Shown piece after piece: positions 957 to 57,900 of a stretch of DNA of 64,000 nt (the stretch's first letter is position 1; every line of letters starts with the position of its first letter). The notes under the pieces were generated by a model. That model ran no database searches, had not been told where the DNA came from, and saw only the letters and a program-made list of their open reading frames with translations. A program made the translations under genes and the position numbers. The DNA comes from Stenotrophomonas sp. (GTDB lineage Bacteria > Pseudomonadota > Gammaproteobacteria > Xanthomonadales > Xanthomonadaceae), in assembly GCF_036662295.1 (NCBI RefSeq), contig NZ_JAVWXA010000002.1, positions 23,446-87,445 of the forward strand, written 5' to 3'.

Positions 957-2006
957 ATGCTGAGCCAACACCTGCTCTTCTTCTTTGCCATGCTGGGGGC
1001 GTTCAACGGCATCGGCATCGCCACGTTCCTCTGGTGGCGGGCACGCGGCGAGGCGACCCAGCGCTGGCTGGCGCTGCTGATCCTTGCCGTCGGGGTGCGC
1101 ACTGGAAAGTCGGTGGTGTTCTACTTCTGGCCCGACATCCCGGTGGTGGCGCTGCAGATCGGACTGACGGCCTGTTTCATGATCGGCCCCTGCCTGTTCT
1201 TCCTGATGCGGGCCGCGATGGGTGACGGCCAGGCCCTTGCGCGCGTGGACCGCTGGCACCTGGCCGCATTGCTGCTGGTGGTGCTCGCGGTGAACATCCT
1301 GCTGCCCTATTCCGGCCATCCGCATCTCTGGCGGCATACGCTCACGCCCGGCATCAACCTGGCCTGGCTCGGCTACCTGCTGGCCACCACCGTGCTGGCG
1401 CTGGGCCACCGCGCGTGGCAACCGGGCCGGCCCGCCCGGCTGTTGCTGCTGGGCGCGCTGGTGGGGGTGTGGCTGATCTGGGCGGCGTACTACACCGCCG
1501 GCTACACCTCCTACATCGTCGGCGCGCTGTCGTTCACCTTCGTGCTGGCCACCAGCGCGCTGGTCTGCCTGCGCCTGCGCAATGGCCAGCCGGTCGTGGC
1601 GCCGTACCAGGACCGGCGCATCGCCGATGACGAAGCCGCCCCGCAATTGCAGGCGCTGGCCGAGCTGATGACGCGCGAGCGCCTGCACCTGGACCCCGGC
1701 CTGACCCTTCCCCGGGTGTCGCGACGGCTGGGCATTCCGCAGACCCGCCTGTCGCAGTTGTTGAACGACAACGCGCAGACCTCCTTCAAGCAGTACCTGG
1801 CCCAGCTGCGGGTGGTGGAAGCCAGGCAGCTGTTGCAGCAGCAGCCTGCCAAGCCGATGGAGGCGGTTGCCGAGGAGGCGGGGTTCCAGTCCATGTCCAC
1901 CTTCTACAGCGCCTTCAAGCGGGTGGAAGGCATCACCCCGGCGGCGTTCCGGGCCGCGGCGACCGGCTCCCAGAATCGATTCCCGGACTCCGGCAACCGA
2001 TCGTAG
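957..2006 (+). CDS. Membrane-anchored AraC-family transcriptional regulator
   Basis: Several hydrophobic helices followed by C-terminal AraC HTH (LHLDPGLTLPRVSRRLG...AEEAGFQSMSTFYSAFKRVEGITP); start trimmed to MLSQHLL. Confidence 0.9.
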   Translation: MLSQHLLFFFAMLGAFNGIGIATFLWWRARGEATQRWLALLILAVGVRTGKSVVFYFWPDIPVVALQIGLTACFMIGPCLFFLMRAAMGDGQALARVDRWHLAALLLVVLAVNILLPYSGHPHLWRHTLTPGINLAWLGYLLATTVLALGHRAWQPGRPARLLLLGALVGVWLIWAAYYTAGYTSYIVGALSFTFVLATSALVCLRLRNGQPVVAPYQDRRIADDEAAPQLQALAELMTRERLHLDPGLTLPRVSRRLGIPQTRLSQLLNDNAQTSFKQYLAQLRVVEARQLLQQQPAKPMEAVAEEAGFQSMSTFYSAFKRVEGITPAAFRAAATGSQNRFPDSGNRS

Positions 2007-2065
2007 TGGATTGATTTACAAGGCAATCGCCTAGCCTGCCTGCTCCTTCCAACGAGCAGGCCTGC

Positions 2066-2854
2066 ATGTCCATCTCCCGCGCTTTACCCACGCTGTTGCT
2101 GCTGCTGGCCACCGGGCTGGGGCTGGCCGGCCCCGCCGCGGCGGCGGCCCCCGTGGCGGCGTCCCCGGCGCCTGGGCGCATCCTGTTCATCCTGGCCAGC
2201 GCCAAGGTGCATGGCCGCGCCGCCCTGCCGGCCAGCATCAGTTTCGGCGAGGTGGTCCACGCCTGGGATGTCTTCCATGCGGCCGGCTACGCGGTCGACT
2301 TCGTGTCGCCCGAGGGCGGCGCCGTGCCGATCCTGGACAGCTATGTCAGCGATGACGTGCGCGCGCGCCTGGACGACCCGCGGATCATGCAGGGCCTGCG
2401 CGCCACCGCCAGCCCGGCACGGATCGACCCGGGCGCTTATCGCGCGGTCTATTACGTGGGCGGCAGCAACGCGATGTACGGGGTGGCCGAGGATCGGCAA
2501 CTGCAGGCGATCGCGATGGCGGTCTACCAGCGCGATGGCGTGGTCTCGGCGGTCTGCCACGGCACGGCGGGGATCGTGAACCTGACCCTGCCCAGCGGCC
2601 AGCCACTGCTGGCCGGCAAACGCATCACCGGCTTTCCCGAACAGCACGAAGACCAGGCGGCCGCCTACTTCAAGGAGTTTCCGTTCCTGATCGGCCGCAC
2701 CGTGCAGGCACGCGGCGGAATCTTCCACAAGGTGGACAGCGAAGCGCCCTTCATCCAGGTCGATGGCCGCGTGGTGACCGGGCAGAACTACGCCTCCGCC
2801 GCGCCGGTGGCGCAGGCCGTGCTTGAGGTACTGCGCAACGCAACCCCGCGTTGA
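2066..2854 (+). CDS. Exported DJ-1/PfpI (class I glutamine amidotransferase-like) protein
   Basis: Signal peptide; FGEVVHAW, DFVSPEGG, AVCHG nucleophile elbow, VTGQN. Confidence 0.88.
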   Translation: MSISRALPTLLLLLATGLGLAGPAAAAAPVAASPAPGRILFILASAKVHGRAALPASISFGEVVHAWDVFHAAGYAVDFVSPEGGAVPILDSYVSDDVRARLDDPRIMQGLRATASPARIDPGAYRAVYYVGGSNAMYGVAEDRQLQAIAMAVYQRDGVVSAVCHGTAGIVNLTLPSGQPLLAGKRITGFPEQHEDQAAAYFKEFPFLIGRTVQARGGIFHKVDSEAPFIQVDGRVVTGQNYASAAPVAQAVLEVLRNATPR

Positions 2855-2919
2855 GCCCCGACGCGTCGATGCCACTGCCGCACCCCCTTTCGTTTACCCC
2901 AACCGTCCCGAGGACCACC

Positions 2920-3360
2920 ATGAAAACGTCGATCCATCCCGCCGCCCTCGCTGGCGCGCTGCTCCTGTTGCTGCCCAGCTCGCTGCTGGCCAACCCCCGC
3001 GACCGCCAGGACGTGGACCGTGCCATGCAGACCTTCCTGCGGGCCTATCAAACCGACGACCCGGCTCTCGTCAGCGAGGTGTTCCGCAAGGACGGGGTCA
3101 TGATCGGTTACTCGGCCGCACGCGGCGAGGGACTGCTGCAACGCACGGGGGCAGACTTCGCCAGTGGTTTTTCCGGCAAGCCCGCGCAGGACGAAGCCCT
3201 GCGCAAACGCAGCTACGAGATCGTCGATGTCACCCCGCAACTGGCGGCAGTGCGTGTGACGCTCGATTACCCGGGCTGGAAAGGCGTGGACTACGTGGTG
3301 CTGTACAAGACCGGCGGCCGCTGGATGATCATGAGCAAGACGTGGACCGGCCACTCCTGA
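2920..3360 (+). CDS. Exported NTF2-like / lumazine-binding family protein
   Basis: Signal peptide MKTSIHPAAL...; YEIVDVT...AAVRV...DYVVLYKTGGRWMIMSKTW ending; RBS GAGGA. Confidence 0.8.
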   Translation: MKTSIHPAALAGALLLLLPSSLLANPRDRQDVDRAMQTFLRAYQTDDPALVSEVFRKDGVMIGYSAARGEGLLQRTGADFASGFSGKPAQDEALRKRSYEIVDVTPQLAAVRVTLDYPGWKGVDYVVLYKTGGRWMIMSKTWTGHS

Positions 3361-3443
3361 GCCGTCACGCCGGCTGAAGACCGGTGGCGGGGAGGGCCTC
3401 GGCGATCGGCCACCGGCTCTGCCCTGCCACCGCATCGGCCTGG

Positions 3444-3866
3444 CTAGTACCGCCACGGCCCCGAGCCATGCCCGTCGTAGTCGGCGACGATCGCGGCAAG
3501 CCACGCCTGCAGATCCTCGAGGAAGGCCGTGTGGTTGAAGTCGGTGAGTTTCCGCTTGCCCAGCATGGCCGACAACTGCAGGTGCAGTTCGTCGGTGACG
3601 TGGCGCATGCGGCCGATCATGTCGGTCTGGCGCATCAGCGCGTAGTCCAGCATGACGTCGGTGTAGTACTGGCGCGTGGCCTTGGAGAACCGGTGACGGC
3701 GGCGGAAGGCCAGCTCGGGCTCCCGGCACATGAGGATCACCGCGACGCGCTGGACGCCGGCGCCGTAGTCCTTGCCGAGGAAGTCATCCTCGCGTGGCGC
3801 CAGCTCGGACAGAATCCGGCCGACGTAGGTGTCCCAGTCCGAATCCGCGCTTATCCAGAGTTTCAT
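3444..3866 (-). CDS. Probable Imm44-like polymorphic-toxin immunity protein (orphan)
   Basis: 140 aa, MKLWISADSD...KDYGAGVQRVAVILM...FRRRHRFSKATRQYYTDVMLDY pattern; RBS AAAGGAG on the minus strand. Confidence 0.6.
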   Translation of the reverse strand: MKLWISADSDWDTYVGRILSELAPREDDFLGKDYGAGVQRVAVILMCREPELAFRRRHRFSKATRQYYTDVMLDYALMRQTDMIGRMRHVTDELHLQLSAMLGKRKLTDFNHTAFLEDLQAWLAAIVADYDGHGSGPWRY

Positions 3867-3968
3867 GTCGCTCCTTTTTGAACACCAACGGCTGCGCGTC
3901 AGCGGCCGTTGCCGGGGGCCCGGCGCGACTGTAATACGGGAACGGGGTGCATCGGGCGGCGAGCCTGC

Positions 3969-3997
3969 TTGACTACATTTGTAGTCAACGCTACAAC
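3969..3997 (+). promoter_or_regulatory. sigma70 promoter overlapped by a perfect BlaI/MecI-type operator
   Basis: TTGACT(3969-3974)-N17-TACAAC(3992-3997); palindrome TTGACTACA-TT-TGTAGTCAA at 3969-3988. Confidence 0.75.
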
Positions 3998-4028
3998 AGC
4001 GTCCACCCCCTGCCCAGTGGAGCGACGG

Positions 4029-5498
4029 ATGCGCCTGGCTGCCCGTGTGTGCGGTATTGCGATGCTGTTGTGCAGTTTCCTGGCCGCGGCCAGTGCCCCC
4101 GCCACACCCGAACAGCTGCGCGCGCTGGTGGACAGCTATGCCAGCCACCGCGGCTTCAACGGCACCGTGCTGGTGGCCCGGGAAGGCAAGGTGCTGTTGC
4201 TCGCCGCGCATGGCAAGGCGAATGCGGAGTGGTCGGTGCCCAATCGCACCGATGGCCGCTTCCGTATCGGCTCGCTGACCAAGCCATTGGTGGCCACCTT
4301 GACGATGCAGCTGGTGGAGCAGGGCACGCTTGCGCTGGACGGAACGCTGGGCGGGTATCTTCCCGAGCTGTACGGCAACACGCCGGCCGCCTCGGTGACG
4401 GTGGCGCAGCTGCTCAGCCATACCTCCGGCCTGGCCGACGTGCCGGCGCGCTATACCGACCCGTGGTGGCAGACCGCTGCGCGCCGTGCGTACACCCCGA
4501 TGGACTTCGCGCGCGAGTGGATCCCGCCGACGCTGCGCGAAGCGCCGGGCCAGCAGTGGCGCTACAACAACAACGGCTTCTTCCTGCTGGGCGTGGTGAT
4601 CGAGCGCGTCACCGGCGCCTCGCTCGCCGACAACCTGCAGGCGCGGATCTTCGCACCCGCGGGCATGACCGCCAGCGGGTTGTACGGCGATGGCACCGTG
4701 CTGGAGCGCCTCGCCCAGGGCTATGCGCGCACCCCGCAGGGGCAGTGGACGGCGCCGCAATGGATCGACCCCAGCGTCTCCTATGCGGCCGCCGGCATCT
4801 ACACCACCGCCGAGGATCTCTACCGCTTCGACCAGGCGCTGTATGGCACCTCGCTGCTGCAGGCCGACACGCGCGCGACGATGCTACAGGCGCGCGCGGC
4901 CGGGTACGGCTTTGGCTGGAACGTGGAAACCTGGACGCTGGCCGATGGCCGCACGCTGCCCGTGGTGTCCCACACCGGCAGCGTGCCGGGCTACCAGAGC
5001 TATTACCTGCGCGCCGAGCCGCACCGCGACGCGGTGATCATCCTGGACAACCTCTGGCAGGGCGCGCTGGTGGCGGCCATGGGGCGGGACCTGCTGGAAG
5101 TGCTGAATGGCAAGCCGATGCAGCCGGCAAAGCGCAGCCTGGATGATCTGCTGACGCCCATCGCCTATCAACAGGGCGTGGACGCCATGGCCCGCGCCTA
5201 CACCGGCCTGGGCGCGCGTGGGCGCGACTACGACCAGAGCGAGGCGGCCTTCAACAGCCTGGGTTACAAGTTCCTGCGCGCGGACCGGAAGGAGGCGGCC
5301 GTGCGCGTGCTGGAATGGGGCGCGGCGGCCTATCCGGCCTCGGCCAATGCGCATGACAGCCTGGGCGAGGCCTACCGGGCCGCAGGGCGACGGGACCCGG
5401 CCAGGCGCAGCTACCAGACGGCGTTGACCCTCGACCCGGCGAGCAAAAGCGCGCGTGCCGCGCTGGCCGAGCTGGAGGGCGAGCACCCGCCCCGCTGA
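4029..5498 (+). CDS. Exported serine hydrolase (beta-lactamase/class C-like) with C-terminal TPR
   Basis: Signal peptide; SLTK (SxxK), YNN (YxN) and HTG motifs; TPR tail NAHDSLGEAYRAAG. Confidence 0.9.
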   Translation: MRLAARVCGIAMLLCSFLAAASAPATPEQLRALVDSYASHRGFNGTVLVAREGKVLLLAAHGKANAEWSVPNRTDGRFRIGSLTKPLVATLTMQLVEQGTLALDGTLGGYLPELYGNTPAASVTVAQLLSHTSGLADVPARYTDPWWQTAARRAYTPMDFAREWIPPTLREAPGQQWRYNNNGFFLLGVVIERVTGASLADNLQARIFAPAGMTASGLYGDGTVLERLAQGYARTPQGQWTAPQWIDPSVSYAAAGIYTTAEDLYRFDQALYGTSLLQADTRATMLQARAAGYGFGWNVETWTLADGRTLPVVSHTGSVPGYQSYYLRAEPHRDAVIILDNLWQGALVAAMGRDLLEVLNGKPMQPAKRSLDDLLTPIAYQQGVDAMARAYTGLGARGRDYDQSEAAFNSLGYKFLRADRKEAAVRVLEWGAAAYPASANAHDSLGEAYRAAGRRDPARRSYQTALTLDPASKSARAALAELEGEHPPR

Positions 5499-37932: not shown

Positions 37933-38634
37933 ATGGACCGCGCGCAGTTCCTGCGCCTGATGCTGGGCAGTGCCGCCTTCGCCGCACTGCCCTCGCTGGC
38001 GCGCGCCCAGGCCGGACGCTACGATTTCTGGTTCACCCGCCTGAAGTACGACTCCGGCGACTGGGACGTGGATGCGCGCATGCCCTCGAACCTGATCACC
38101 TCGCTGATCGACTACACCACCCTGCGCGTGGACCCCACCGAGCATGTGATCGCCCTGTCCGACCCGCGCATGCTGGAGGCCCCGTTCTGCTACCTGGCCG
38201 GGCACACGCTGGTGGAGTTCAACGCCGCCGAGCGGCAGAACTTCGTGCGTTACGTGCGTAACGGGGGTTTCGTGTTCGTCGATGACTGCAACCACGACAT
38301 CGACGGCCTGTTCGCCACGTCGTTCGAGGCGCAGATGCGCGCCTTGTTCGGCCCGGCCGCGCTGAAGAAGCTGCCCAACGGCCACGCGCTGTACCGCAGC
38401 TTCTTCCGCTTCCCCGAGGGCCCGCCGGCCACCGGGTTCGAGCTCAATGGCTGGGGCGACGACCTGGTCCACGACTATCTCAAGGGCATCGAGGTGGACG
38501 GACGCCTCGGCGTGCTCTACAGCAACAAGGACTACGGCTGCGAGTGGGATTACGACTGGCGCAACAAGCGTTTCCTGGCCGAAGACAACACCAAGTTCGG
38601 CGTGAACATCGTGATGTATGCGTTGAACAACTGA
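37933..38634 (+). CDS. DUF4159 family protein with Tat-like leader
   Basis: MDRAQFL...ARA leader; RLKYDSGDW, GGFVFVDDC, YSNKDYGCEW, GVNIVMYAL. Confidence 0.8.
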   Translation: MDRAQFLRLMLGSAAFAALPSLARAQAGRYDFWFTRLKYDSGDWDVDARMPSNLITSLIDYTTLRVDPTEHVIALSDPRMLEAPFCYLAGHTLVEFNAAERQNFVRYVRNGGFVFVDDCNHDIDGLFATSFEAQMRALFGPAALKKLPNGHALYRSFFRFPEGPPATGFELNGWGDDLVHDYLKGIEVDGRLGVLYSNKDYGCEWDYDWRNKRFLAEDNTKFGVNIVMYALNN

Positions 38635-54264: not shown

Positions 54265-56103
54265 TCAATCGCGCAGGCGTTCGGCCTTGCCGCTGGCGAT
54301 CGCCTGGTCGATGGCCGTGCGCACCGCGCGTGCGGCCCGCGCCGAGGCCACGCTCTGCTGCTGGGCCAGGCGCGCCTGTTCACGGCCCAGTTCGGCCTGT
54401 TCGCGGGCCACCCGGGCCATCTGCTGCGCATCGATCGCCCGCACCGCGGTGGTGCGCGCCTGGCGTGCGGCCTGGTTGGCTTCGGCGGCGGCGTCCATGC
54501 CGGCCTGGCGTCCCGCCGCCCGGGCAACGGCGTCCACATCGACATGCGCCATGACATCGGCGGTGACCTGCATGCTCAGCTTGGCCAGCTGCTCGCCCGA
54601 CAACGACTGGCGATCACCCAGTGCGGCCTGGGCATTGCCCAGTGCCGCCACTTCGGCCTGGTTGCGGGCCAGTGGGCGAAGCACCGCCGGATCGCGGATC
54701 AGGTAGCGCGCCTGGCCACGGCGTACCCACAGCGCCGGCGTTCCGTCGGCCACGTCGCGCTGCGCCTGCTTGAGATCGGCCACCGAGGCATCGACGAAGT
54801 TGTCGTCGCCGTCCATCAGCACGAAGGCCTGGGCCGCCTGGCGTGACAGGTTGACCTGGCCGTGGGTCACCATCGACACCTCCCGGCCCAGCGGCTGCAG
54901 CAGCGTCGACACGCGCGCGACACGCGGGACGGCCGGCGCTTCCGGCACCGCGGGTGCCGCGGGTGCCGCAGGCACGGCCGGTGAAGCGGGTGATGCCTTC
55001 AGCGACGGGGCAGGCGGGTTGGGGGGCGCAAGCGGCGCAGACGGCGGCGGTGGCACGTGGGGGGCCGTCGGTGCCGGCGGCGGCGGGGCCGGCGGTGGGG
55101 GCGCCGCCACCAGTCGCAGCGGCGCAATGCCCACCACCACGAACATCGCCGTGATCGCCATGGCCGCCACGCGCGGGAAGCGCCGGGTCTGCTGCAGGCT
55201 CAGCAGGCGCCGCTTGAGACTGCGGAAGTTGGGCGAGGCACTGGCCACGCCCACCGCCGGCCGTGGCGCCACGCCCAGCTGCACCAGCAGGCGGCCGTAG
55301 TCGTGCCGGCAATGCCCGTGCCCGGCCACCACGGCGCCATCGCAGGCCTCTTCGCGGGCCAGCGCATATTCGCGCGCCGCCAGGTGCACCAGCGGGTGGA
55401 AGAAGAACAGGTGCTGGGCCAGCGCCGGCAGCAGTCCCCACCACAGGTCGCGCCGCTGCAGGTGGATCAGTTCATGGGTCAGCGCCATGTCCAGGTCGTC
55501 GGCGGCCATCGCCGGCAATTCGCGCGCGGGCAGCAGCAACACCGGCCGCCACGGCCCGATCAGCTGCGGCGAGTGGATCTGCGCGGAGATCTTCAGCGCT
55601 GGCGCGCGGCGCAGGCCATGCGCCTCCGCCGCCAGGTGCAGCGCCTGCCGCAGCGAGGCATCGGTGCACGCCGCCGCCGCGTTGACCAGCGCGCGGCTGG
55701 CGCGATAGCCGCGCAGGCTGTGCAGCACCAGCACCGCCACGCCCGCTGCCCACACCGCCAGCAGCAGCAGCGGCCAGGACCACGTCGCCGCCTGCGGCGC
55801 GGCCATCGCCACGCTGTCCAATGCGGCGGGCGCCCACGTCACCGCGCTGTCGGCCACCGGTGCGCCCAGCGCCTGGACCACCGGCGCGGCCGCCGGCGCC
55901 GGCAACACCGCCAGTTCCAGCGGGTTGCTCCATACCAGGCCCAGCACCGCCTGCGCGGCCACCAGCCACCACAGCCGGCAGCGCGTGGCCGGCGGCAGGC
56001 CCGGCAGCCACCGGCACACGGCCCAGACCAGGCCCACCAGTACCGCGCTCTGTACGCTGGTCCATGCCAGCCGCATCAGCAGTTCCATCATCGTGCTCTC
56101 CAT
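54265..56103 (-). CDS. M56-family (BlaR1/MecR1-like) signal-transducing metallopeptidase
   Basis: TM helices; SPQLIG, HELIH (HExxH), FFFHPLV, REEACD; Pro-rich linker; novel C-terminal domain. Confidence 0.9.
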   Translation of the reverse strand: MESTMMELLMRLAWTSVQSAVLVGLVWAVCRWLPGLPPATRCRLWWLVAAQAVLGLVWSNPLELAVLPAPAAAPVVQALGAPVADSAVTWAPAALDSVAMAAPQAATWSWPLLLLAVWAAGVAVLVLHSLRGYRASRALVNAAAACTDASLRQALHLAAEAHGLRRAPALKISAQIHSPQLIGPWRPVLLLPARELPAMAADDLDMALTHELIHLQRRDLWWGLLPALAQHLFFFHPLVHLAAREYALAREEACDGAVVAGHGHCRHDYGRLLVQLGVAPRPAVGVASASPNFRSLKRRLLSLQQTRRFPRVAAMAITAMFVVVGIAPLRLVAAPPPPAPPPPAPTAPHVPPPPSAPLAPPNPPAPSLKASPASPAVPAAPAAPAVPEAPAVPRVARVSTLLQPLGREVSMVTHGQVNLSRQAAQAFVLMDGDDNFVDASVADLKQAQRDVADGTPALWVRRGQARYLIRDPAVLRPLARNQAEVAALGNAQAALGDRQSLSGEQLAKLSMQVTADVMAHVDVDAVARAAGRQAGMDAAAEANQAARQARTTAVRAIDAQQMARVAREQAELGREQARLAQQQSVASARAARAVRTAIDQAIASGKAERLRD

Positions 56104-56106
56104 GGC

Positions 56107-56493
56107 TCAGCCCTCCCGCTTGCGTGATTGCAGCTGCGCGACCAGTGCTTCCAGCTCGGCCAGTTCCTGGTCGCTGACCTCGGCCTTGTGCGACATGAAG
56201 GCCACGAACGGCGACACCGACCCCTGCAGGGTCTTCTCCACGAAGCTGGCCACCGCGCCCTGCACCACGCTGTCCTGGCCGGTGGTGGCGGCGTAGCGGT
56301 ACACGCCCTGCACCTGCCGGCGCTGCAGGTAGGCCTTGCCGCGCAGGCGCTCCATCATGGTCAGCACGGTCGAGCGGGCCAGCCCGCGTTCTTCGCCAAA
56401 CCCGGCCGCCACCTCGCCCACGGTGGCACCGCCCTGTTCTGCTATGTACTGCAACAGGGCCAGTTCCTGGTCCCCGATGGTCTTGCCGCGCAT
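56107..56493 (-). CDS. BlaI/MecI/CopY-family repressor
   Basis: IGDQELALL...STVLTMMERLRGK...YRYAA...FVEKTLQGS. Confidence 0.92.
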   Translation of the reverse strand: MRGKTIGDQELALLQYIAEQGGATVGEVAAGFGEERGLARSTVLTMMERLRGKAYLQRRQVQGVYRYAATTGQDSVVQGAVASFVEKTLQGSVSPFVAFMSHKAEVSDQELAELEALVAQLQSRKREG

Positions 56494-56505: not shown

Positions 56506-56550
56506 TGACTACACGTGTCGCTACCGTGCCAGTGACTACAACTGTCGTCA
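56506..56550. promoter_or_regulatory. Two BlaI-type operators upstream of the blaI-like gene
   Basis: TGACTACA-CG-TGTCGCTA (56506-56523) and TGACTACA-AC-TGTCGTCA (56533-56550); BlaI/MecI core is TACA-NN-TGTA. Confidence 0.72.
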
Positions 56551-56694
56551 AGTGCCCGATGGCCCGTCCCGACGAAAGGTCGACGACGGCGGTGCGCTTA
56601 AACCTTTTGGCCCCCGGCCACATCCAACCCTGCGAGCGCGGATGCCCCGCGCCTGCGGCGCCCGGCGCCGCTGCCCCTGCCCAAGGAACACCGC

Positions 56695-57900
56695 ATGCGC
56701 GCTCGCTCCCTCCGTGCCATCGTCCTGGCCGCCCTCGTGCTGCCCCTGGCGTGCCTGGCCGCCCCGTCCACCGCGTGGGCGCCGGCCAACGCGCAGGCCC
56801 GCCAGTTCGTGCAGCGCACGATGCAGGACAAGGGCATCCCCGGCCTGCAGATCGCGGTGGTCAAGGACGGCGCGATGGTGCTGTCCGAGGCCTATGGCCT
56901 GGCCAACGTGGAGAACGCCGTGCAGGCCACGCCGGCCACGCGCTTCCCGCTCAACTCGGCCACCAAGGCCTTCACCGGGGTGGCGATGGCGCAACTGGCA
57001 CAGGCCGGGCGCGTGGACCTGCAGGCCCCCGTGTCGCGTTATCTCCCCGATCTGCCGGCGGCATGGGGCAAGGTGCGGGTGCGCCAGCTGCTCGCCCACA
57101 CTTCCGGCCTGCCCGACATCCTCGACGCACAGGGCCTGCTCGGCGGCGGCAGCGAACAGGCGGCGTGGGCGCAGGTCACCGCGCTGCCGATGGAAGCCGA
57201 ACCGGGCGCGCGCTACCGGTACAACCAGACCAACTACGTGCTGCTGGCGCGGATCATCACCCGCCAGGCCGGCGTCCCGTATGCGCAGTACATGGCCCGC
57301 CATCAGTTCGACGTGGTGGGCATGCCGCGCACCACCTTCGGCGACAGTTACGACCTCACCGCCGATGCGGCCACGATCTACAGCTGGTTCCCGCGCAGGA
57401 CCGACGCGCCCGGGGCGCCGGCGCGGTTGTCGCATTGGTTCTACGACGTCTCACCGGAACTGTGGGCCGGTGCCGGCCTCCTCACCACCGCCGACGAGGT
57501 GGGCCGCTGGCTGATCGCGCTGTCGAAGGGGCAGCTGCTCAAGCCCGCCGGCGTACACCGCATGTGGCAGCCCGAACGCCTGGCCAGCGGCGCCGACGGC
57601 GCCTGGGCGGCCGGCTGGCCGGTAATGGGCACGCAACCGTCGCTGCAGGTGGGCGGCATCGGCGGCGCGCGCGCCGCCTTCGTGGTGTATCCCGAGCAGG
57701 ACCTGGCGGTGGTGGTGCTCACCAACCTGGTCGGCGCCAACCCGCAGGAATTCATCGCGCAGGTGGCCGCGTTCTATCAATCGCCGTCGGCGACGCCCGC
57801 CGCCCGCGAGGGCGACGGTGCGCCGGCCGCGCCCATGGCATCGCCGCCAACCGGCGTCAGCCGCGCGGCCCGCCCATCACCGGCAGGATCACCCCGCTGA
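56695..57900 (+). CDS. Exported serine hydrolase (beta-lactamase/class C-like), divergent from blaI
   Basis: Signal peptide; SATK (SxxK), YNQTNY (YxN); third motif GIGG rather than HTG/KTG. Confidence 0.88.
   Translation: MRARSLRAIVLAALVLPLACLAAPSTAWAPANAQARQFVQRTMQDKGIPGLQIAVVKDGAMVLSEAYGLANVENAVQATPATRFPLNSATKAFTGVAMAQLAQAGRVDLQAPVSRYLPDLPAAWGKVRVRQLLAHTSGLPDILDAQGLLGGGSEQAAWAQVTALPMEAEPGARYRYNQTNYVLLARIITRQAGVPYAQYMARHQFDVVGMPRTTFGDSYDLTADAATIYSWFPRRTDAPGAPARLSHWFYDVSPELWAGAGLLTTADEVGRWLIALSKGQLLKPAGVHRMWQPERLASGADGAWAAGWPVMGTQPSLQVGGIGGARAAFVVYPEQDLAVVVLTNLVGANPQEFIAQVAAFYQSPSATPAAREGDGAPAAPMASPPTGVSRAARPSPAGSPR

What the first reader, a model, noticed from the sequence alone, without database searches (positions are those of the whole stretch)
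3969..3997. Distal BlaI-type operator: a two-locus serine-hydrolase regulon
Seen: the perfect palindrome TTGACTACA-TT-TGTAGTCAA covers the -35 and spacer of a sigma70 promoter (TTGACT-N17-TACAAC) for the TPR-tailed serine hydrolase at 4029. The same TGACTACA-NN-TGT(A/C)GTCA motif occurs twice upstream of the blaI-like gene about 52 kb away, whose divergent neighbour is another serine hydrolase. Established: BlaI/MecI dimers bind TACA-NN-TGTA and are released after BlaR1/MecR1 signalling. Inference: this repressor controls the distant hydrolase in trans, giving an inducible hydrolase regulon in a Gram-negative bacterium.
Basis: partly seen in the sequence, partly recalled or inferred. Interest (0 to 1): 0.75.

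Follow-up and report, generated by a model that had tools for sequence, protein, structure and literature searches.

The report
Distant operator of a BlaI-type repressor
A 20-base palindrome on the promoter of a secreted penicillin-binding-type hydrolase gene is almost certainly the binding site of a BlaI-family repressor encoded 52 kb away in this Stenotrophomonas genome; the wiring recurs across the genus, but the principle is already known from staphylococci, mycobacteria and cyanobacteria.

Summary
TTGACTACATTTGTAGTCAA (3969-3988) is a perfect palindrome. In the 4.26-Mb genome its 18-base core, allowing up to 3 mismatches, occurs only here and twice on the blaI promoter (56506-56523, 56533-56550). 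The distal copy is the best-scoring site in the genome.

The reading is well supported by comparison, not by experiment:
- All 8 orthologues of the TPR-tailed hydrolase fetched from other assemblies (67-83% identity) keep the box at the same distance from the ATG, while the flanks diverge.
- The box occurs in 22 of 22 family genomes with the BlaI orthologue, against 3 of 128 without it.
- Ten of 10 distal perfect boxes sampled in the genus lie upstream of PF00144 hydrolase genes.
- The genome's only other BlaI paralogue has a different box.

Three points remain open. Control of the hydrolase next to blaI is not shown. The signal is unknown, because the M56 partner has no penicillin-binding domain and its periplasmic domain matches no solved fold. 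The -10 element is weak.

I rate this a new member of a known kind; M. tuberculosis BlaI/blaC is the closest parallel. This scan has noted BlaI/M56 operator regulons before on other DNA, with copper or thiol outputs; those notes are unchecked leads, not support. Interest is moderate.

The parts
3969..3988 (.). Distal operator: perfect 20-bp palindrome TTGACTACA-TT-TGTAGTCAA (18-bp core 3970-3987); its left arm supplies the -35 hexamer TTGACT (3969-3974)
   Evidence: conserved in all 8 orthologous promoters from other assemblies
3992..3997 (+). Putative -10 hexamer TACAAC, 17 nt after TTGACT. Orthologues have TACAAC, TAGCTT, TAGTTT or TAAACC at or within one base of the same spacing
   Evidence: not called by the consensus scan, so this is inferred
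4029..5498 (+). Target gene: secreted PF00144 (S12-type) serine hydrolase with a C-terminal TPR tail; motifs S82-L-T-K85, Y179-N-N181 and H315-T-G317 are intact
56107..56493 (-). blaI-like repressor gene (PF03965, 128 aa, no cysteine)
54265..56103 (-). M56 membrane metalloprotease partner (HELIH at 210-214): Pro/Ala linker, then a small beta/alpha module and a long coiled coil in the periplasm; no penicillin-binding domain
56533..56551 (-). Autoregulatory operator 1 on the blaI promoter; reads TTGACGACAGTTGTAGTCA on the minus strand and supplies the -35
56506..56523 (-). Autoregulatory operator 2 (2 mismatches), between the -10 and the ribosome-binding site of blaI, centred 27 bp from operator 1
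56695..57900 (+). Divergent PF00144 hydrolase (SATK present, no YxN, GIGG in place of KTG). It is a neighbour of the module; membership of the regulon is not shown

Best explanation
The palindrome at 3969-3988 is an operator for a dimer of the BlaI-family repressor encoded at 56107-56493. It overlaps the -35 hexamer and spacer of the promoter of the secreted TPR-tailed S12-type serine hydrolase gene (4029-5498). A bound repressor would therefore block RNA polymerase.

The same repressor shuts off its own blaI-M56 operon through two boxes that flank its -10 element. By analogy with the family, a signal received by the M56 membrane protease (54265-56103) leads to cleavage of the repressor, and both loci are then derepressed.

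Shown here, by computation: the sites, their uniqueness in the genome, their conservation, their co-occurrence with the repressor, and intact HExxH and hydrolase catalytic motifs. Inferred: binding, repression, proteolytic release, and the nature of the signal, which is unknown.
For: - Uniqueness: only three sites in the genome, all at these two promoters, and the distal one scores best.
- Conserved autoregulatory design: in 23 orthologous blaI promoters one box overlaps TTGAC, a -10-like hexamer follows, and a second box sits about 27 bp from the first.
- Footprint: all 8 hydrolase orthologues from other assemblies (67-83% identity, different gene neighbourhoods) keep the box at about the same place relative to the ATG. 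Seventeen of the 22 invariant alignment columns lie in the box, and the central two bases vary freely.
- Co-occurrence: the box is present in 22 of 22 BlaI-orthologue-positive family genomes, against 3 of 128 negative ones, each of those a single one-mismatch hit. Eight of the 9 genomes holding the hydrolase have the repressor.
- Genus level: the box is found in 110 of 121 genomes, with 0 hits for the reversed control. Ten of 10 distal perfect boxes fetched lie upstream of PF00144 hydrolase genes, 4 of this family and 6 of a second family.
- Negative control: homologues of the second family in six repressor-negative genomes lack the box.
- The other BlaI paralogue is 29% identical, pairs with an M56-TonB_C protein, and has TTACG-NN-CGTAA boxes at its own promoter only.
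- The TACA/TGTA core is typical of the family. The repressor aligns with BlaI, MecI and M. tuberculosis BlaI through the recognition helix and the region of the cleavage site.
Against: - There is no experimental evidence of binding, repression or induction, and no usable RNA data were found.
- The -10 hexamer TACAAC lacks the usual final T, and the consensus scan calls no promoter here.
- One Pseudoxanthomonas MAG (3.0 Mb, completeness unknown) has the hydrolase and box but no PF03965 gene was found.
- The M56 partner has no recognisable sensor fold, so 'inducible' rests on family analogy.
- A second conserved element upstream of many regulon promoters hints at further, unexplained control.
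Confidence: 0.85

Rival explanations
1. The box is bound by a different regulator: either the genome's second BlaI paralogue (contig C48, paired with an M56-TonB_C protein) or an unrelated factor that also acts at the blaI promoter.
For: A second PF03965 gene exists. BlaI-family boxes share a similar architecture, so some cross-recognition cannot be excluded without an experiment.
Against: The paralogue's own promoter carries TTACG-NN-CGTAA boxes, which differ at 2 of 5 core positions per half-site. That box has no other intergenic copy in the genome. The two proteins are 29% identical and their recognition helices differ. The TGACTACA box tracks the orthologue of the window's repressor across 150 genomes.
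Confidence: 0.05
2. The palindrome acts mainly as a nucleic-acid structure (RNA hairpin, terminator or attenuator), or is a repeat-element remnant, rather than a protein-binding site.
For: Any perfect palindrome can in principle form a hairpin or cruciform.
Against: - Both arms are invariant across the window and 8 orthologues, with no compensatory changes. The single arm substitution seen (TGTAGCCA) is uncompensated, which points to base-specific recognition rather than pairing.
- The loop would be only 2-4 nt and no T-run follows (one search finds no terminator).
- The box lies upstream of the predicted transcription start.
- Only three copies exist in the genome, so it is not a dispersed repeat.
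Confidence: 0.03
3. The repressor binds the box, but the system is a constitutive or growth-phase set-point device, like C. difficile CenIR for which no inducer has been found, rather than a stress- or antibiotic-inducible regulon.
For: The M56 partner lacks a penicillin-binding domain and its periplasmic part matches no known ligand-binding fold. The CenIR preprint reports that non-canonical BlaIR systems are the majority and that no inducer was found for CenIR (PMC13081940).
Against: The HExxH site is intact and the periplasmic domain is conserved across the family. This suggests a working signal-dependent protease. Outputs are accessory secreted hydrolases that vary between species, which is more typical of a conditional response.
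Confidence: 0.2

Closest known systems
Mycobacterium tuberculosis BlaI (Rv1846c) / BlaR (Rv1845c) controlling blaC
   Same: A PF03965 repressor is encoded beside an M56 protease that lacks a penicillin-binding domain. It represses a beta-lactamase-fold gene at a separate locus, plus its own operon (PMC12565901; PMC13081940). 2g9w is the best solved-structure match of the repressor.
   Different: The target here is an S12 DD-peptidase/D-peptidase-like enzyme with a TPR tail, not a class A beta-lactamase. The host is a Gram-negative gammaproteobacterium. The regulon appears much smaller: two loci in this genome.
Staphylococcus aureus BlaI/BlaR1-blaZ and MecI/MecR1-mecA
   Same: A winged-helix dimer binds an inverted repeat with a TACA/TGTA core that overlaps promoters. 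It autoregulates and has an M56 protease partner with HExxH. From my own knowledge, BlaI can also act in trans on mecA.
   Different: BlaR1 and MecR1 carry an extracellular penicillin-binding sensor (PMC9834060, listed, not read). The partner here does not. Gene order is repressor first. NCBIfam BlaI/MecI cut-offs are far from met.
PetR/PetP of Synechocystis sp. PCC 6803
   Same: This is a BlaI/CopY-family repressor plus BlaR-type protease in a Gram-negative organism. It controls a handful of unlinked genes, with the repressor degraded on a signal (bioRxiv 10.1101/2020.07.31.226407).
   Different: The signal there is copper and the outputs are electron carriers. Here the outputs are secreted hydrolases, and neither the repressor nor the periplasmic domain contains cysteine, which argues against a thiol-based metal sensor.
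CenI/CenR of Clostridioides difficile
   Same: A non-canonical BlaIR pair without a transpeptidase domain, with a multi-gene cell-envelope regulon that includes a peptidoglycan hydrolase (PMC13081940).
   Different: CenIR is Gram-positive and essential, with about 12 targets and a disordered sensor tail. Here there is a folded beta/alpha module plus coiled coil and one distal target.

Membership tests
BlaI/MecI/CopY repressor-operator systems (PF03965) | Penicillinase_R winged-helix domain above Pfam's gathering score | tested here: met
   92 bits against a cut-off of 22.6; aligns to 2g9w, 1sd4/1xsd and 1okr
BlaI/MecI/CopY repressor-operator systems (PF03965) | Operator is an inverted repeat with a TACA-NN-TGTA core overlapping a promoter | tested here: met
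   That this core is the family's recognition motif is from my own knowledge.
BlaI/MecI/CopY repressor-operator systems (PF03965) | Autoregulatory operators at the repressor's own promoter | tested here: met
   Two boxes immediately upstream of blaI, conserved in 23 orthologous promoters
BlaI/MecI/CopY repressor-operator systems (PF03965) | Adjacent M56 membrane metalloprotease with HExxH | tested here: met
   PF05569 at 210.7 bits; HELIH at 210-214; the pairing is kept wherever the downstream DNA was held, absent only in one contig-end locus
Canonical beta-lactam-sensing BlaR1/MecR1 | Extracellular penicillin-binding (transpeptidase-type) sensor domain on the M56 protein | tested here: not met
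   No Pfam hit beyond residue 301. NCBIfam blaR1_generic gives 73 bits against 400. The model is a small beta/alpha module plus coiled coil with no significant PDB match.
CopY-type copper repressors | C-terminal cysteine metal-binding motif | tested here: not met
   The repressor has no cysteine; TIGR02698 gives 32 bits against 122
BlaI/MecI/CopY repressor-operator systems (PF03965) | Direct binding of this protein to this site, and signal-dependent proteolysis | not testable with these tools
   Needs EMSA or footprinting and immunoblots
S12 / penicillin-recognising serine hydrolases (PF00144) - the target gene | SxxK, YxN and (K/H)(T/S)G motifs and the PF00144 domain | tested here: met
   183.7 bits; SLTK 82-85, YNN 179-181, HTG 315-317. 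Nearest solved relatives are alkaline D-peptidase 4y7p and R61 DD-peptidase 1cef.
Class C beta-lactamase - the target gene | Reaches NCBIfam's class C equivalog cut-off | tested here: not met
   62 bits against 415, so it should not be called a beta-lactamase
Sigma-70 promoter | -35 and -10 hexamers at 16-18 nt spacing, with A2 and T6 in the -10 | tested here: inconclusive
   TTGACT-N17-TACAAC matches 5/6 and 4/6 but lacks T6, so the scan does not call it. Four orthologues have TAGCTT or TAGTTT within a base of the same spacing.

The most novel reading that the evidence does not exclude
The Stenotrophomonas/Xanthomonadaceae BlaI-M56 pair would be a new kind of envelope sensor. Its beta/alpha-plus-coiled-coil periplasmic domain would detect cell-wall-active or D-amino-acid-containing compounds, or their peptidoglycan breakdown products. 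It would then induce secreted DD-peptidase-like and amidase enzymes that detoxify or bypass them. That would be a second, AmpR-independent inducible response to cell-wall antibiotics in a genus that includes the multidrug-resistant S. maltophilia.
Probability: 0.12. Interest if true: 0.75.

Novelty: new member of a known kind. Interest (0 to 1): 0.45.

Why it matters
According to a 2026 survey (PMC13081940), most M56/BlaI pairs in databases lack a penicillin sensor and have no known signal or output. Here the output can be read straight from the genome: one, and in relatives two, families of secreted penicillin-recognising-type hydrolases.

The wiring is nearly universal in Stenotrophomonas (110 of 121 sampled genomes carry the box). 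A distantly related repressor with a different box shows the same wiring in another genus.

This gives a small, specific promoter (about 3950-4030) that could serve as a reporter to screen for the unknown inducer. It also raises a testable question: do these non-canonical switches still deal with cell-wall chemistry?

The regulatory principle itself is not new.

Tried and rejected
- **RNA evidence.** The run search returned only contig-level data and small shares for RNA libraries. Contigs cannot show a start site or expression level, so I laid no reads.
- **Promoter and terminator scan.** Nothing was called at either locus. The promoter assignment therefore rests on position and on orthologues.
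- **Sensor domain.** Pfam, NCBIfam, the ESM Atlas and a Foldseek search of an AlphaFold model (pLDDT 74.9) gave no informative relative. The signal remains unknown.
- **Literature.** I found no paper on BlaI-type regulators in Stenotrophomonas or Xanthomonas in the searchable library.
- **Second paralogue as cognate regulator.** Rejected.
- **Third copy of the paralogue's box** at window 38249-38262. It lies inside a long reading frame (37933-38634, not checked against any family), so I treat it as chance.
- **Control of the divergent hydrolase at 56695.** The nearest operator is 145 nt from its ATG, with other conserved blocks in between. I left this as not shown.
- **Short palindrome ACGCT-ACAAC-AGCGT** overlapping the -10 (3988-4002). 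It is not kept in orthologues and was dropped.
- **One-mismatch sites in Xanthomonas and in a low-GC3 island** (L041, L043, L045/L046). They gave no clear target.

Full report
**1. The observation**

Positions 3969-3988 read TTGACTACA-TT-TGTAGTCAA, a perfect 20-bp palindrome. TACAAC lies 17 nt after TTGACT, GGAG is at 4019-4022, and the ATG is at 4029.

One hundred dinucleotide-preserving shuffles gave none.

The window lies in a 4.26-Mb, 68.5% G+C genome. A scan of all 199 contigs finds no other site within 3 mismatches of the consensus. I built a weight matrix from 46 orthologous operator copies. It scores the three window sites at 33.4, 31.5 and 24.1 bits, and the next best site in the genome at 16.4. 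The distal copy is therefore the best site in the genome.

**2. The genes**

- 4029-5498 encodes a 489-aa protein with a signal-peptide-like N-terminus, a PF00144 domain and a TPR tail.
  - All three motifs of penicillin-recognising serine enzymes are present: SLTK 82-85, YNN 179-181 and HTG 315-317.
  - Its nearest solved relatives are alkaline D-peptidase (4y7p, 1.6e-35) and the Streptomyces R61 DD-peptidase (1cef).
  - It reaches no NCBIfam cut-off; the class C beta-lactamase model gives 62 bits against 415. It should be called an S12-type hydrolase, not a beta-lactamase.
- 56107-56493 (-) is a 128-aa PF03965 repressor without cysteine.
- 54265-56103 (-) is its M56 partner. It has an intact HELIH, then a transmembrane segment, a Pro/Ala linker and about 220 periplasmic residues.
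- 56695-57900 (+) is a second PF00144 protein. It has SATK but no YxN, and GIGG in place of KTG.

**3. Is the window's repressor the cognate one?**

The genome holds exactly two PF03965 genes. The other, on contig C48, is followed by an M56-TonB_C protein and is 29% identical to the window's repressor. Its promoter carries two TTACG-NN-(C/T)GTAA boxes. The only other copy of that box in the genome lies inside a long reading frame at window 38249. The two paralogues therefore have separate boxes, each at its own promoter.

**4. The autoregulatory promoter is a conserved design**

Orthologues of the window's repressor occur in 21 of 149 other sampled genomes of the family, across 10 of 64 genera. 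All 23 promoters recovered have the same layout:
- a box beginning with TTGAC that serves as the -35;
- about nine bases containing a TA-rich hexamer such as TACGGT, TAGCGT or TAGTTT;
- a second box centred about 27 bp from the first;
- the ribosome-binding site and the start codon.

The M56 gene follows wherever the downstream DNA was held; the one exception is a locus cut by a contig end.

**5. The distal box is a phylogenetic footprint**

The TPR-tailed hydrolase is an accessory gene. In the family sample it appears only in one other genome, plus a truncated remnant in a third.

A scan of 185,579 species genomes found eight orthologues at 67-83% identity. They are in Stenotrophomonas sp. 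BIGb0135, an S. maltophilia-labelled MAG, two S. acidaminiphila, S. nitritireducens, a Pseudoxanthomonas MAG, a 'Proteobacteria' MAG, and a contig filed under Bacillus subtilis that is evidently Stenotrophomonas DNA.

All eight have TTGACTACA-NN-TGTAG(T/C)CA(A/T) at about the same distance from the ATG, with TA-initial hexamers 16-17 nt after TTGACT. In the alignment with the window, 17 of the 22 invariant columns lie in the box and three are the ATG. Mean column identity is 55%, and the central dinucleotide varies (TT, AA, AC, AT). Only the closest relatives share a flanking gene, so box and gene travel together. Invariant arms without compensatory change point to base-specific protein recognition rather than a hairpin.

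**6. Co-occurrence with the repressor**

- Across 151 family genomes the box (up to 1 mismatch) is present in all 22 genomes with the repressor orthologue. It is present in 3 of the 128 scored genomes without it. Each of those three hits is a single one-mismatch site; the reading frames listed suggest two of them lie inside genes. The reversed-pattern control found a single site in one genome and none in the rest.
- Of the nine genomes that hold the hydrolase, eight have the repressor orthologue.
- The exception is the 3.0-Mb Pseudoxanthomonas MAG, in which no PF03965 gene at all was found. Its completeness is unknown, so this stays an open point against the model.

**7. The same wiring elsewhere**

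- In the genus, 110 of 121 sampled genomes have an exact match to the degenerate box, and the control has none.
- I fetched 13 perfect-palindrome sites. Three were blaI promoters. All ten distal sites lie just upstream of PF00144 genes: four are orthologues of the TPR-tailed enzyme and six belong to a second family, first seen in L030. This genome lacks that second family.
- Homologues of the second family in six repressor-negative genomes have no such box within 250 nt.
- One of those six genomes, G143, carries a different palindrome, ATTACA-NN-TGTAAT, upstream of its homologue. The only other copies in that genome are two boxes immediately upstream of a distantly related PF03965 gene on another contig. 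That looks like an independent instance of 'two boxes at the repressor, one box at a distant PF00144 gene'.
- In two other genera, perfect boxes precede acetamidase/formamidase-family (PF03069) genes; the one read in detail begins with a signal-peptide-like sequence.
- In one Xanthomonas-like genome, a pair of boxes 27 bp apart precedes a free-standing homologue of the M56 protein's periplasmic domain.

**8. What is not shown**

- **The neighbouring hydrolase.** The operators sit 13-57 nt from the blaI start but at least 145 nt from the ATG of the divergent hydrolase at 56695. Other conserved blocks lie between them. This neighbour is also present beside blaI in only some Stenotrophomonas. Its control by the repressor is possible but unsupported. 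The distant gene has better evidence than the adjacent one.
- **The promoter.** It is inferred. The simple scan rejects it because the -10 ends in C.
- **Expression.** No usable RNA data exist.
- **The signal.** It is unknown. The periplasmic part has no Pfam or NCBIfam match. It models as four short strands and a helix followed by a long coiled-coil hairpin (pLDDT 74.9) and has no significant PDB neighbour. The Atlas shows only M56 proteins and uncharacterised free-standing relatives. Neither this domain nor the repressor has cysteine, which argues against a CopY-like thiol-based metal sensor.

**9. Mechanism**

Most likely, a repressor dimer on 3969-3988 occludes the -35 and spacer of the hydrolase promoter. 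The same protein on two boxes shuts down its own operon. Activation of the M56 protease removes the repressor and both loci are expressed.

Only the first layer is shown here, by computation: the sites, their specificity and their conservation. Binding, repression and proteolysis are inferred from the family. Supporting details are the intact HExxH and an alignment with S. aureus BlaI through the recognition helix and the region of the cleavage site.

**10. Comparison and novelty**

The nearest parallel is M. tuberculosis BlaI/BlaR. It is a repressor with a sensor-less M56 partner that represses the unlinked blaC (PMC12565901; PMC13081940). PetR/PetP shows the principle in a Gram-negative organism with four unlinked targets (bioRxiv 10.1101/2020.07.31.226407). 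CenIR shows a cell-envelope regulon, and the same preprint reports that only about 6% of M56 proteins carry a transpeptidase domain.

I found no paper describing this system in Stenotrophomonas or Xanthomonas. It is a new member of a known kind. Its value is practical: a clean, genus-wide, two-locus regulon with a compact promoter that can be used to look for the signal of an orphan class of switches.

Earlier notes of this scan describe BlaI/M56 operator regulons on other DNA with copper or thiol outputs. I used them only as a lead to PetR/PetP.

Noticed in passing
G000 contig C48:22426-24500 (locus L001 1440-3085), outside the window: A second BlaI-family repressor with an M56-TonB_C partner. 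Two TTACG-NN-(C/T)GTAA boxes lie at its own promoter, and it is divergent from a flavin reductase gene. It is a separate switch with no other intergenic box in the genome.
   Followed up: partly
Upstream of operators in L004-L006, L013, L015, L018, L024, L030, L047, L070-L076, L083, L084; weak relatives at window 3944-3951 and 56562-56569: A second conserved element, (G/C)CATGACTTC(A/C)GG-like, lies 8-13 nt upstream of the -35 in many regulon promoters. It is also present at homologous hydrolase promoters in repressor-negative genomes, which have TTGTGG/TTGAGG-N17-TACGGT/TAAGGT but no operator. It may be an UP-like element or the site of another factor; I could not explain it.
   Followed up: partly
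L048 (G122:C1:4204000-4209100) 1526-2419 (-), boxes at 2553-2570 and 2580-2597: In a Xanthomonas-like genome, two BlaI boxes 27 bp apart precede a free-standing membrane-anchored protein. It is 35% identical to the periplasmic domain of the M56 sensor and could be a decoy or modulator of the sensor.
   Followed up: partly
L044 (G128:C11) 1210-2520 (-) and L047 (G122:C1) 2530-3834 (+): In two other genera, perfect boxes lie just upstream of acetamidase/formamidase-family (PF03069) proteins; the one read in detail begins with a signal-peptide-like sequence. The regulon's outputs are amide-bond hydrolases of more than one fold.
   Followed up: partly
L089 (G143:C60) and L092 (G143:C53:15845-16239): A distantly related BlaI-family gene has two ATTAC(A/G)-NN-(T/G)GTAAT boxes at its own promoter. 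One perfect copy lies upstream of a PF00144 hydrolase on another contig. This looks like the same wiring with a different box.
   Followed up: partly
L040 (G141:C1:601392) and L042 (G098:C125:16606): One-mismatch boxes lie about 100-200 nt upstream of orthologous DUF998 membrane-protein genes in two same-genus genomes. These are possible further targets.
   Followed up: no
window 56695-57900: The hydrolase next to blaI has SATK but lacks YxN and has GIGG where KTG/HTG is expected. Conserved blocks (CCGACGAA-GGT, TTAAACCTTT, GCATCC-A) between the operators and its ATG suggest it has its own promoter.
   Followed up: partly
window 3447-3866 (-): A 140-aa protein with no Pfam match is encoded divergently from the hydrolase gene. 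Upstream lie a lumazine-binding-like protein (2851-3360), a DJ-1/PfpI protein (2066-2854) and a long AraC-family regulator (9-2006).
   Followed up: no
window 38249-38262: The palindrome GTTACGTGCGTAAC has the same core as the second paralogue's box, but it lies inside a long reading frame (37933-38634, not checked against any family). I treat it as chance.
   Followed up: yes
L055 (JAHREJ010000067.1, filed as Bacillus subtilis SK7B5) and L061: This assembly holds Stenotrophomonas-type hydrolase, box, BlaI (95% identical) and M56 genes. It is probably contaminated or mislabelled.
   Followed up: no
L028 (G064:C6:221261-224806): A remnant of the TPR-tailed hydrolase gene covers residues about 249-474 with a frame change. 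The N-terminal half, promoter and box are missing, in a genome that still has the repressor.
   Followed up: partly
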